From Kondoa subrosea (Eukaryota), in assembly GCA_039545335.1 (NCBI GenBank), contig BCIN01000002.1:1687118-1751117 (forward strand): 64,000 bases of DNA, given 5' to 3'. The translations under genes were made by a program, and so were the position numbers. This document shows, piece after piece, positions 37,552-39,642 of the stretch (within the stretch, counting starts at the first letter, position 1; each line of letters starts with the position of its first letter). The notes under the pieces are model-generated. The model saw nothing but the letters and a program-made list of their open reading frames with translations, was not told where the DNA came from and searched no databases.

Positions 37552-39642
37552 CTATTTGTTATCTGCATGATGCCCGAACGGAAACTTCCCATGCAAGACT
37601 GAATCTCCAACTCCAAGTGTGCCGACTCTGTGTCTCGAGTCCTGCATAGCGAGAGTAAGACCGGCTTGCGAGAGAGAGAAGAGATTCAACTTACCACATG
37701 CTCTTCCTTGGATTCGGCTTGCGCTTCGTTGACTTCCCTCTGTACTCGTTGACTGTCCGGATCGAGCTTGAAGGTATTCGCGGCCCGCACTTTGGTGAAA
37801 GCTACGATTTCCCTCCATCAGTATCTTCACTTTTTCCCAATCAGTCGGAAATTACCTGATCGCCAAGTACTTTTCGCATTGAATCCTTTGCGCACATGTG
37901 GTAACAAATCTCGGTGTTTGCCGTCGTCTGTGAGACCAATATGTTCTTCCTTGAGCCAGGGATGATTGAGTATACCTTCAGCTGTCGGCCGTTGCTTCTG
38001 ATCGATCGTCAAACATTGCTTGATGAAATCTCTAGCTGTTTGAGAGACATGTTGCCAGTATCTAAAACAAATGGCGTGAGCCCAACCACCTCTCCACGTA
38101 GTAGACGCTCAATTTACTCTTCAGGCTCAAATTTGTAGTCTGCTGCACAAATAGCTTTGATCTCTTCGGAATTGTTATCTCTGTCGAAAGGCGTATATCC
38201 TGCATGATTGGTCAGATATGTTGCTGATCAAAGCAGAAGAAGACTCACCACATAGCAAGAAGTATGTTATGACGCCAATTGCCCAAATATCTACTGGTTT
38301 GTAGTGTCCTTCTTTCTTGAAGATTCTATTGTGTTCACTCAATTTCAGCAGCTATACCATAAGTCGCAAGATGGAATGGCCTGACTCTGGAGCCATATAA
38401 CCAGGTGTCCCGCACGTGGTTGTCAGCACTGTCATCTTCTGATCGTCAATCATCTTCGACAACCCAAAATCGGCAATCTAAAGACCCTTCTATCCTTGGG
38501 AACCAGGAAAGGTATGAAGGCGTACAAGTAGATCTGCATCTTCATCTTTACCTGTGGAAATGATATGTTTAAGTCGTGAGCTAAAGAGAAAGAGATTCTG
38601 CGCACTCCTAAACAATAGATTCTCCGGTTTGAGATCTCGATGAATGATGCCTCTTTCGTGCAAATAGGCTACTGCAGAAGTAATGACATGTACTAGATGT
38701 CGAGCATCTTTCTCGAAGTAGGCTAAAAGAAGGTTTAGTACATTGAAATCGAAACCGCAAGGGACTTACAGCCTTTTGCGCAGATTCGATCGAAGAGCTA
38801 TTCAATACATTTCAGCAGTGTTTGGCAGGCAAGCAGCTGGGCTCATACTTCTCCGCCCGTGCACAGATCAGTGACGAGATAAAGGTTGTTCATCGTCTGA
38901 TGTGACGAATCAGCCAGACTCAAAGTACTGCGCGCAGACAACCATACCTCAAAGTAATCGTGCAGCGTCACAATATGTCGATGTCCCACACTGACTTTCT
39001 TCAAAACATTGATCTCGTTCCTATTCTCGGTAGCGTCAATTCCGTCTTGTCTTGAAGGCAGAAGTGACGGGACGCATACCTAAAGACCAAGTGTAGATCA
39101 GCATGAGTCGTCAATATACGACGGTAGCAGACATTACTGACCTCACCATACCTTCTCTCCCTTCCATCAAACGCTTGTTGATGACTTTGCATGCGTAGTA
39201 CTGTCTTGGCCGTTAGTCTATTGCAGTATTGTAGTGTAGATAAACTTACTTTGCCAGCTGCAGTCATTCGGAACAGTCTCAGGCTTAGTACTCTGCTGAA
39301 GCAGGAAAGAACTTGCTCGTTATATGTACACTGATTAGATTGCATTAGCCTGAATTGAACACAGGATAGTACAGCTACTGACCATTCTTTGACTACAGCA
39401 TAAGCTACAGCGGGGCAACTCGCTGATCAGCAAGTTGTTGTTTCAGAATGCAAACGGGAAGCGAGCTTACTTCCTTGGCCTAAGCAGATCATTGAGGTGA
39501 GGCTATTATACTAGGATAGATGATTCCAGCTGACCTAAGACTTTGCCTGTCTTGTATCTGTAGACCAGAGATTCAGTTCGCAACCTTAACGAGCACAGCA
39601 TCTTATTGCAACGTACTGACAAGGCACTGTTGAAGGAGCCAT
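37552..39642 (-). CDS. CMK1: Ca2+/calmodulin-dependent protein kinase, highly fragmented into micro-exons
   Basis: Spliced [57 protein letters not shown]...[10 protein letters not shown]...IADFGL...[11 protein letters not shown]. Confidence 0.95.

What the first reader, a model, noticed from the sequence alone, without database searches (positions are those of the whole stretch)
39021..39141. Two abutting introns with a zero-nucleotide exon (recursive splice site) in CMK1
Seen in sequence (minus strand): the conserved kinase peptide M-V-R-N-E-I requires joining GTG AG (ending 39142) directly to G AAC (starting 39020). The 121-nt gap is twice the local intron size and divides into two complete introns. 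The first is GTCAGT...GCTGAT...TTTAG (39141-39080, 62 nt). It is followed immediately by GTATGC...ATTGAC...AATAG (39079-39021, 59 nt). I found no micro-exon that keeps the frame. Established knowledge: recursive AG|GT ratchet points are known mainly from long animal introns, and nested twin introns are known in fungi. Inference: two-step removal under intron definition, possibly the end point of micro-exon shrinkage in a gene that already has 8-14 nt exons.
Basis: partly seen in the sequence, partly recalled or inferred. Interest (0 to 1): 0.7.

Follow-up and report, generated by a model that had tools for sequence, protein, structure and literature searches.

The report
Two back-to-back introns in a kinase gene
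A 121-base gap in a fungal calcium/calmodulin kinase gene reads as two complete short introns joined end to end, so it is probably cut out in two steps, a process already shown in a few other fungal genes but not confirmed here by RNA data.

Summary
On the minus strand, a CaMKI-type kinase gene (CDS 39642-37552) must lose exactly 39141-39021 (121 nt) to read GMVR|NEI. All homologues read it that way.

The gap splits at 39080|39079 into a 62-nt unit and a 59-nt unit. Each unit has its own 5' splice site, branch motif and YAG. The gene's other 16 introns are 47-66 nt.

The internal AG|GT is not a chance look-alike:
- It scores highest of all 530 AGGT sites in the window.
- An equally good junction arose in 1 of 50,000 shuffles.
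- A minimal junction arose in about 0.1-0.3% of shuffles.

The upstream unit is one of the best introns in the gene. The final branch site and 3' site are weak. Stepwise (recursive) removal is therefore the most likely route, at about 0.6. No RNA data could be obtained, so the route is inferred.

Distant relatives have a single intron 5 nt upstream (M|V), without an internal junction. The five introns and the 8-23-nt exons just upstream are specific to this lineage.

Zero-length exons have already been shown in S. pombe and C. neoformans. This is a predicted new member of a known kind, of moderate interest.

The parts
37552..39642 (-). CaMKI-type (CMK1-like) protein kinase gene, 18 exons, CDS from ATG to stop
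   Evidence: Spliced alignment to P0001: 348 of 368 residues identical. P0001 has a Pkinase domain, E 6e-76. Its best solved relatives are CaMK1D and CaMKI, E 7e-81.
39142..39200 (-). Exon 7 (59 nt), ending GTG AG (V plus two bases of the R codon)
39080..39141 (-). Unit 1, a 62-nt intron: gag|GTCAGT ... CTGAT ... TTTAG
   Evidence: PWM total 15.9. The 16 other introns score 10.9-16.7.
39097..39101 (-). Branch motif CTGAT of unit 1. The branch A is at 39098, 18 nt before the internal AG.
39079..39080 (-). Internal AG|GT junction, the proposed zero-length exon (ratchet point)
   Evidence: Rank 1 of 530 AGGT sites. 1 of 50,000 shuffles scored as well. 22-59 of 20,000 shuffles passed the rule-based test.
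39021..39079 (-). Unit 2, a 59-nt intron: GTATGC ... TTGAC ... AATAG
   Evidence: PWM total 9.6 with the regenerated gag| context (5' site 5.4) and 8.3 in the genomic context. The frame through it is open, but no database protein shares the peptide.
39035..39039 (-). Branch motif TTGAC of unit 2, which would also serve a one-step excision. The branch A is at 39036, 15 nt before the AG.
   Evidence: It is the only candidate and scores a weak 1.39.
38948..39020 (-). Exon 8 (73 nt), starting G AAC GAG (last base of R, then N E I)
39141..39146 (-). GTGAGG, a weaker alternative 5' site at the M|V position that related loci use
   Evidence: Score 3.94. The intron sits at ATG|GT in 30 of the 32 related loci printed.
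39250..39479 (-). Upstream run of tiny exons (9 nt 39479-39471, 22 nt, 14 nt 39330-39317, 8 nt 39257-39250) with a GC-AG intron at 39316-39258
   Evidence: These introns are absent from every related genomic locus examined.

Best explanation
The 121 nt are two abutting U2-type introns of the organism's normal size, 62 nt and 59 nt, with no exon between them.

Proposed mechanism (inferred):
1. The strong 5' site at 39141 pairs with the strong branch site CTGAT and the TTTAG 62 nt downstream. Unit 1 is removed first.
2. This joins GTG AG to GTATGC and recreates a good 5' site (gag|GTATGC).
3. That site pairs with the weak TTGAC/AATAG. Unit 2 is removed, giving GTG AG|G AAC (M-V-R-N-E-I).

Removing unit 2 first would also work and gives the same mRNA. 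Transcripts that stop half-way carry an early stop codon.

The two units most likely have separate origins: the old intron of this site, shifted by 5 nt, and a newer intron gained beside it in a gene segment that gained several introns.

Shown: the sequence anatomy, its statistics, and the required mature junction. Inferred: the order of steps, actual use of the internal junction, and the origin.
For: The mature junction is fixed by homologues and by a near-identical cDNA-like contig. No micro-exon solution fits.

Size: the 16 other introns are 47-66 nt.

Signal strengths, from PWMs trained on those 16 introns:
- Unit 1 totals 15.9, the second best in the gene.
- The internal 3' site plus branch scores 9.4. 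The terminal 3' site plus branch scores 4.2.
- The regenerated 5' site scores 5.4.
- A one-step excision would therefore have to skip a near-consensus branch and 3' site at the modal distance in favour of a weaker one twice as far away.

Chance is unlikely: 22-59 of 20,000 and 1 of 50,000 shuffles, and rank 1 of 530 AGGT sites.

Half-spliced products are out of frame with early stops, so selection would maintain the second step.

Context: five lineage-specific introns and exons of 8-23 nt lie directly upstream.

Precedent: zero-length exons have been shown experimentally in C. neoformans and S. pombe (passages read).
Against: - There is no RNA evidence of any kind for this locus.
- No genomic sequence of a close relative was available, so conservation of the internal junction is unknown.
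- Among the related loci, the intervening stretch at this site is 72-238 nt in 16 of 44. None of the 15 long ones printed has a usable central AG|GT. Long one-step introns are therefore tolerated at this site.
- Unit 2 scores lower (9.6) than all 16 reference introns.
- The PWMs rest on only 16 introns of one gene.
- In a whole genome with thousands of 100-140-nt introns, a few such junctions would arise by chance at a rate of 0.1-0.3%.
- The two other high-scoring AG|GT candidates in the window proved to be ordinary.
Confidence: 0.6

Rival explanations
1. One ordinary 121-nt intron is removed in a single step (5' site 39141, branch 39036, 3' site 39021). The internal branch/AG|GT is fortuitous and rarely or never used.
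For: - Introns of 72-238 nt without an internal junction occupy the equivalent site in related loci.
- The PWM total for the one-step intron, 10.7, is just below the range of real introns, 10.9-16.7.
Against: - The internal junction is the best of 530 AGGT sites and is almost never matched in shuffles.
- The internal branch and 3' site are much stronger than the terminal ones and sit at the modal intron length.
- Ignoring them would be unusual for short-intron splicing.
Confidence: 0.27
2. The internal sites serve alternative splicing, not plain recursion. Two forms are possible:
(a) The internal 3' site is used without re-splicing, which makes a stop-containing transcript that lowers kinase output.
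(b) The 5' site ATG|GTGAGG (39146) is joined to TTTAG (39080), and unit 2 is read as 18 extra codons ([25 protein letters not shown]) in the loop before helix C.
For: - Retention of either unit gives early stops.
- The 39146->39080 excision (67 nt) keeps the frame, and unit 2 is open in that frame.
- 39146 is the position used by related loci.
Against: - None of the 22 database hits to the 44-aa read-through peptide shares the unit-2 part. They are intron read-through ORFs of other lineages.
- An open frame of 20 codons is expected by chance about 40% of the time (my estimate).
- The 39146 site (3.94) is weaker than 39141 (6.49).
- Three close cDNA-like contigs have no insertion.
Confidence: 0.08
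3. A hidden micro-exon lies inside the 121 nt, as in neighbouring parts of this gene.
For: - The gene has exons of 8, 9 and 14 nt.
- A 14-nt micro-exon in another gene of the window mimicked an abutting pair.
Against: - I listed 37 frame-keeping two-intron solutions. The only one giving MVRNEI has a zero-length exon.
- The best micro-exon option adds two residues (MVRYANEI) and uses a 5' site scoring -3.1.
- No homologue has extra residues.
Confidence: 0.02

Closest known systems
Recursive splicing at zero-nucleotide exons (ratchet points) in fungi: C. neoformans BOT1 (375 nt = 210 + 165) and S. pombe SPNCRNA.445 (336 nt), found by spliceosome profiling (10.1101/224170 and 10.1101/226894; passages read)
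   Same: A 3' splice site sits directly against a 5' splice site inside what would be annotated as one intron. Each half has its own branch site, and the mature mRNA is unchanged.
   Different: Those cases are experimentally shown and lie in introns that are long for the species. Here both halves are minimal, modal-size introns (62 + 59 nt) in a coding gene, and the case is only predicted.
Drosophila and vertebrate ratchet points in very long introns (cited; abstracts and passages only)
   Same: Juxtaposed YAG|GTRAGT, with a 5' site regenerated after the first step.
   Different: The animal cases subdivide introns of tens of kilobases and are often defined through a recursive exon. Here length cannot be the reason for subdivision.
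Fungal stwintrons (spliceosomal twin introns; PMC6616335, passages read)
   Same: A complex intervening sequence made of two U2 introns and removed by consecutive reactions in a fungus. That paper names 'abutting U2 introns excised by recursive splicing' as the other class of complex intron.
   Different: In a stwintron the inner intron interrupts the donor, branch or acceptor of the outer one, so the order is obligatory. Here no signal is interrupted, either order works, and one-step removal is possible.
Two short introns separated by a micro-exon, as in this same gene (8-nt exon 39257-39250) and in the MoCF-domain gene (14-nt exon 58241-58228)
   Same: Two modal-size introns lie close together and would be mistaken for one gap of 108-116 nt.
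   Different: Those pairs keep a coding exon between them. Here the exon length is zero.

Membership tests
Recursive splice site / zero-length exon | A 3' splice site (YAG) directly abutting a 5' splice site (GT...) inside a stretch that is wholly removed | tested here: met
   TTTAG|GTATGC at 39080|39079. The whole 121 nt is absent from homologues and from the cDNA-like contig L001.
Recursive splice site / zero-length exon | A branch site of its own at working distance upstream of the internal AG | tested here: met
   CTGAT with the branch A 18 nt upstream. Branch plus 3' site scores 9.4, above the terminal site's 4.2.
Recursive splice site / zero-length exon | A functional 5' site regenerated after the first ligation | tested here: met
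   By sequence only: gag|GTATGC scores 5.4, within the range of the gene's real 5' sites, 3.65-7.16.
Recursive splice site / zero-length exon | Intermediate junctions and two lariats seen in RNA | not testable with these tools
Recursive splice site / zero-length exon | Conservation of the internal junction in related species | tested here: inconclusive
   Only distant genomic relatives (73% protein identity or less) were available. They have one intron 5 nt upstream and no central AG|GT. The close relatives L001-L003 are spliced transcripts only.
Stwintron | An inner intron interrupts the donor, branch or acceptor of the outer intron, so the outer intron cannot be spliced first | tested here: not met
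   Both units carry intact signals, and the 121 nt also has intact outer signals.
Tandemly duplicated intron / introner-like repeat | The units resemble each other or other copies in the genome | tested here: not met
   The unit 1 versus unit 2 alignment score is 16 against a shuffle mean of 20.5, and 1653 of 2000 shuffles scored as high. No other copy lies in the window. There is no family signal among the 18 units of the gene. The whole genome was not available.
CaMKI-type protein kinase (CMK1-like) | A protein kinase domain with closest similarity to CaMKI, plus a C-terminal regulatory tail | tested here: met
   The near-identical P0001 has Pkinase, E 6e-76. The top solved relatives are CaMK1D and CaMKI, E 7e-81, aligned over residues 14-311. 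Calmodulin binding was not tested.

The most novel reading that the evidence does not exclude
In this fungal lineage the 5' part of the kinase gene was a hotspot of intron gain. Five new introns left exons of 8-23 nt.

One further gain landed directly beside the ancient M|V intron. The boundary of that old intron slid 5 nt, because GTGAG can serve either as an intron start or as the codons for V and R.

The result is an exon of length zero. Production of the kinase now depends on obligate recursive splicing of two minimal-size introns. This would be the first such case where subdivision has nothing to do with intron length, and it would show how micro-exons can vanish without changing the protein.
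Probability: 0.3. Interest if true: 0.6.

Novelty: new member of a known kind. Interest (0 to 1): 0.4.

Why it matters
If the internal junction is used, recursive splicing is not only a way to handle very long introns. It can also arise as a by-product of intron gain in genomes where introns are recognised as short units.

It would give a compact, mutable test case of 121 nt for asking how a spliceosome chooses between a near, strong acceptor and a far, weak one, and how exons can shrink to nothing.

In practice, gene annotators would record one unusually long intron here. A scan for 'double-length' introns with a central high-scoring AG|GT could reveal how common such hidden pairs are.

Tried and rejected
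- Whole genome: none is held for this window, so no genome-wide scan for double-length introns was possible.
- Earlier notes of this scan: nothing for this genome or sequence.
- Intronic RNA gene: Rfam found nothing in or near the intron at E <= 1, apart from a chance-level hit on the other strand. The whole window has no Rfam family at gathering score and no tRNA.
- Tandem duplication or introner origin: rejected within the window. The best pair, unit 2 with intron 9, was reached by 31 of 5000 shuffles, which is not significant among 153 pairs.
- Homology of the 121 nt to the 226-238-nt introns of the closest genomic relatives: none.
- Window-wide intron length survey:
  - Signal-only pairing was swamped by background.
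  - The open-frame filter did not beat its control.
  - My crude gene finder chained genes through spurious long introns.
  - Its filtered set of 35 calls has 27 of 40-64 nt and 8 of 75 nt or more. The one long call I checked (14585-14729, +) was false: the second part codes for the arrestin domain's continuation.
- The second-ranked AG|GT in the window (58228, -) is best read as a normal 5' site after a 14-nt micro-exon.
- The strict composite site at 35627 (+) lies in sequence with no clear coding frame on that strand and was not pursued.
- Unit 2 as coding sequence: none of the 22 hits in 1.84 billion representative proteins shares it.

Full report
**The gene.** The minus strand of 39642-37552 encodes a 368-residue protein kinase.
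- I aligned the region to P0001 with a spliced aligner of my own. P0001 is a 368-aa protein from a 1.2-kb contig found with one exon of the window.
- The alignment gives 18 exons and 348 of 368 identical residues.
- P0001 carries a Pkinase domain, E 6e-76. Its best solved relatives are CaMK1D and CaMKI, E 7e-81. 'CMK1-like' is therefore a fair name.
- The closest named proteins are from Agaricomycetes, at 49-57% identity on the query exon. I did not identify the organism further.

**The observation.**
- Exon 7 ends GTG AG at 39142 and exon 8 starts G AAC at 39020. Joining them gives GMVRNEI.
- All 22 related loci without a gap here read MVR directly followed by NEI. So do the 9 full-length proteins printed.
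- The cDNA-like contig L001 reads ATGGTGAGGAACGAA across the junction.
- I listed every frame-keeping solution with one intron, or with two introns and an exon of 0-30 nt. Only 39141->39021 reproduces MVRNEI. The best micro-exon option inserts two residues and needs a 5' site scoring -3.1.
- The whole 121 nt is therefore removed and there is no hidden exon.

**Two units.** The gene's other 16 introns are 47-66 nt, mean 53.9, sd 5.1. The gap divides at 39080|39079 into 62 + 59 nt. I scored the units with position weight matrices trained on the 16 other introns.

| Candidate intron | 5' site | Branch | 3' site | Total |
|---|---|---|---|---|
| Unit 1 (62 nt) | 6.49 | 4.72 (CTGAT, 18 nt) | 4.69 | 15.9 |
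| Unit 2 (59 nt), regenerated gag\| context | 5.4 | 1.39 (TTGAC, 15 nt) | 2.79 | 9.6 |
| 121 nt in one step | 6.49 | 1.39 | 2.79 | 10.7 |

- The 16 reference introns total 10.9-16.7.
- In the genomic context the 5' site of unit 2 scores 4.15.
- The strong acceptor is therefore the internal one. The terminal branch and acceptor are the weakest in the gene.

**Chance.**
- I kept the outer signals and shuffled the interior. A complete internal junction appeared in 22 of 20,000 dinucleotide shuffles (branch CTRAY), 59 of 20,000 (CTNAN) and 162 of 20,000 (no branch required). A Markov model of the other introns gave 19, 64 and 168.
- With the matrices, 1 of 50,000 shuffles matched the observed strengths. 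53 of 50,000 passed looser cut-offs set near the weakest signals of the gene's real introns.
- Among all 530 AGGT sites on both strands of the window, this one has the highest combined acceptor+branch+donor score.
- The signal is real at the scale of the window. In a whole genome a handful of such sites would still be expected by chance.

**Controls that failed elsewhere.** Two other high-scoring AG|GT sites looked like abutting pairs, but both are best read as ordinary sites.
- At 14642 (+) a 58-nt intron is followed by a real exon that begins GTAAGC. That exon continues an Arrestin_C domain gene.
- At 58228 (-) a 49-nt and a 53-nt intron flank a 14-nt micro-exon in a MoCF_biosynth-domain gene. 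The reading ...WVPVVRLQRKLCILPGIPR rests on my recall of the family's motif.
- The window gives no second example. These cases show why the homologue check at the CMK1 site matters.

**Relatives.** A metagenome scan returned 80 loci.
- At this site 22 loci have no gap. One of them, L030, lies on a 53-kb contig and so has no intron here. The others lie on contigs of about 2 kb or less and look like spliced transcripts.
- 44 loci have one intervening stretch. Nine do not cover the site, and five gave only spurious 4-residue matches.
- The stretch lengths are 25 (L022, a leftover), 48-57 in 27 loci, 72-75 in 7, then 84, 90, 103, 105 and 226-238 in 4.
- In 30 of the 32 loci printed, the intron lies at ATG|GT...AG|GTNNG. 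That is between M and V in phase 0, 5 nt upstream of the window's site.
- None of the long introns has a usable central AG|GT. The 226-238-nt introns of the closest genomic relatives (about 70% protein identity) do not align with the window's 121 nt.
- L037 has GTGAG both as intron start and as exon start. This shows how the same five bases can be intron or codons, and how a boundary could slide by 5 nt without changing the protein. That step is my inference.
- All related genomic loci that cover residues 10-52 are uninterrupted there and share only the first intron. The window has five more introns in that stretch, with exons of 23, 9, 22, 14 and 8 nt, one of them after a GC-AG intron.
- This lineage therefore has extra introns packed just upstream of the double unit.

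**Origin.**
- Units 1 and 2 are not similar: alignment score 16 against a shuffle mean of 20.5.
- Neither has another copy in the window, and the gene's 18 units show no family resemblance.
- A recent tandem duplication or a repeated introner is therefore not supported, although the genome could not be searched.
- Gain of a new intron beside the old one, or loss of a 5-nt micro-exon made redundant by the GTGAG repeat, both fit. Neither can be tested without close relatives' genomes.

**Other readings.**
- Retention of either unit gives early stop codons.
- One alternative keeps the frame: ATG|GTGAGG (39146, the relatives' position, score 3.94) joined to TTTAG (39080). Unit 2 is then read as 18 extra codons.
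- I searched the 44-aa read-through peptide against 1.84 billion representative proteins. It gave 22 hits, and all match only the exon part or are intron read-through ORFs of other lineages.
- No RNA family lies in the intron. The 121 nt folds slightly better than shuffles (z = -1.98, 6 of 200 shuffles as good). Each unit folds on itself, and the start of unit 2 pairs with its own branch region.

**What is known.**
- The stwintron literature already lists abutting U2 introns removed by recursive splicing as one class of complex intron (PMC6616335, passages).
- Zero-length exons were shown by spliceosome profiling in C. neoformans BOT1 (375 nt = 210 + 165) and in S. pombe (a 336-nt intron; 'two instances') (bioRxiv 10.1101/224170 and 10.1101/226894, passages).
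- My text searches found no report of a zero-length exon between two minimal-size fungal introns. Those searches cover only the held library.
- A synthetic-intron study in budding yeast shows that two short introns placed in tandem, with an exon between them, are each spliced largely according to their own sequence (PMC8496845, passages).

**Verdict.**
- The anatomy is real and statistically unusual.
- The most likely mechanism is stepwise removal with unit 1 first, at about 0.6. One-step removal is the main rival, at about 0.27.
- Nothing here is a new principle. It is a predicted new member of a known kind, with an interesting evolutionary setting.

Noticed in passing
window 39250-39557 (-): Exons of 23, 9, 22, 14 and 8 nt lie in a row, and one of the introns is GC-AG (39316-39258, GCAAGT...CAG). 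With the 14- and 8-nt exons the protein matches P0001 exactly (VHITTGKYYACK). These five introns are absent from all related genomic loci examined.
   Followed up: partly
window 39141-39146 (-); L037:3391-3489: The old intron of this site lies between M and V in related loci, but 5 nt further on in the window. L037 has GTGAG both at the intron start and at the start of the next exon. That is the state from which a 5-nt slide would leave the protein unchanged.
   Followed up: partly
L022:520-560: This transcript-like contig keeps the last 25 nt of an intron that is 75 nt long in L044/L050. Only the first 50 nt were removed, at ...GGTAAG|G, which shifts the frame. It could be an aberrant or intermediate splice product.
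   Followed up: no
L031:643-870, L032:4135-4374, L036:344-574, L056:1157-1396: The closest genomic relatives (about 70% protein identity) carry a 226-238-nt intron at the same site, about four times the usual size. It has blocks conserved among the four loci, such as CCCGATCC and GCGCTCAGGCGCT.
   Followed up: no
window 58175-58290 (-): A gene with a MoCF_biosynth domain has a 14-nt micro-exon (58241-58228) between a 49-nt and a 53-nt intron. The pair first looked like a 63 + 53-nt abutting pair, and both readings keep an open frame.
   Followed up: partly
window 14585-14729 (+): In an Arrestin_C-domain gene a 58-nt intron is followed by an exon that begins GTAAGC. My gene finder wrongly merged them into a 145-nt intron.
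   Followed up: partly
window 39021-39079 (-): In the predicted fold, the 5' end of unit 2 (GGUAUGCGUC) pairs with its own branch region (GACGCUACC). This would bring the two reactive sites of that unit together. The fold of the whole 121 nt has z = -1.98.
   Followed up: no
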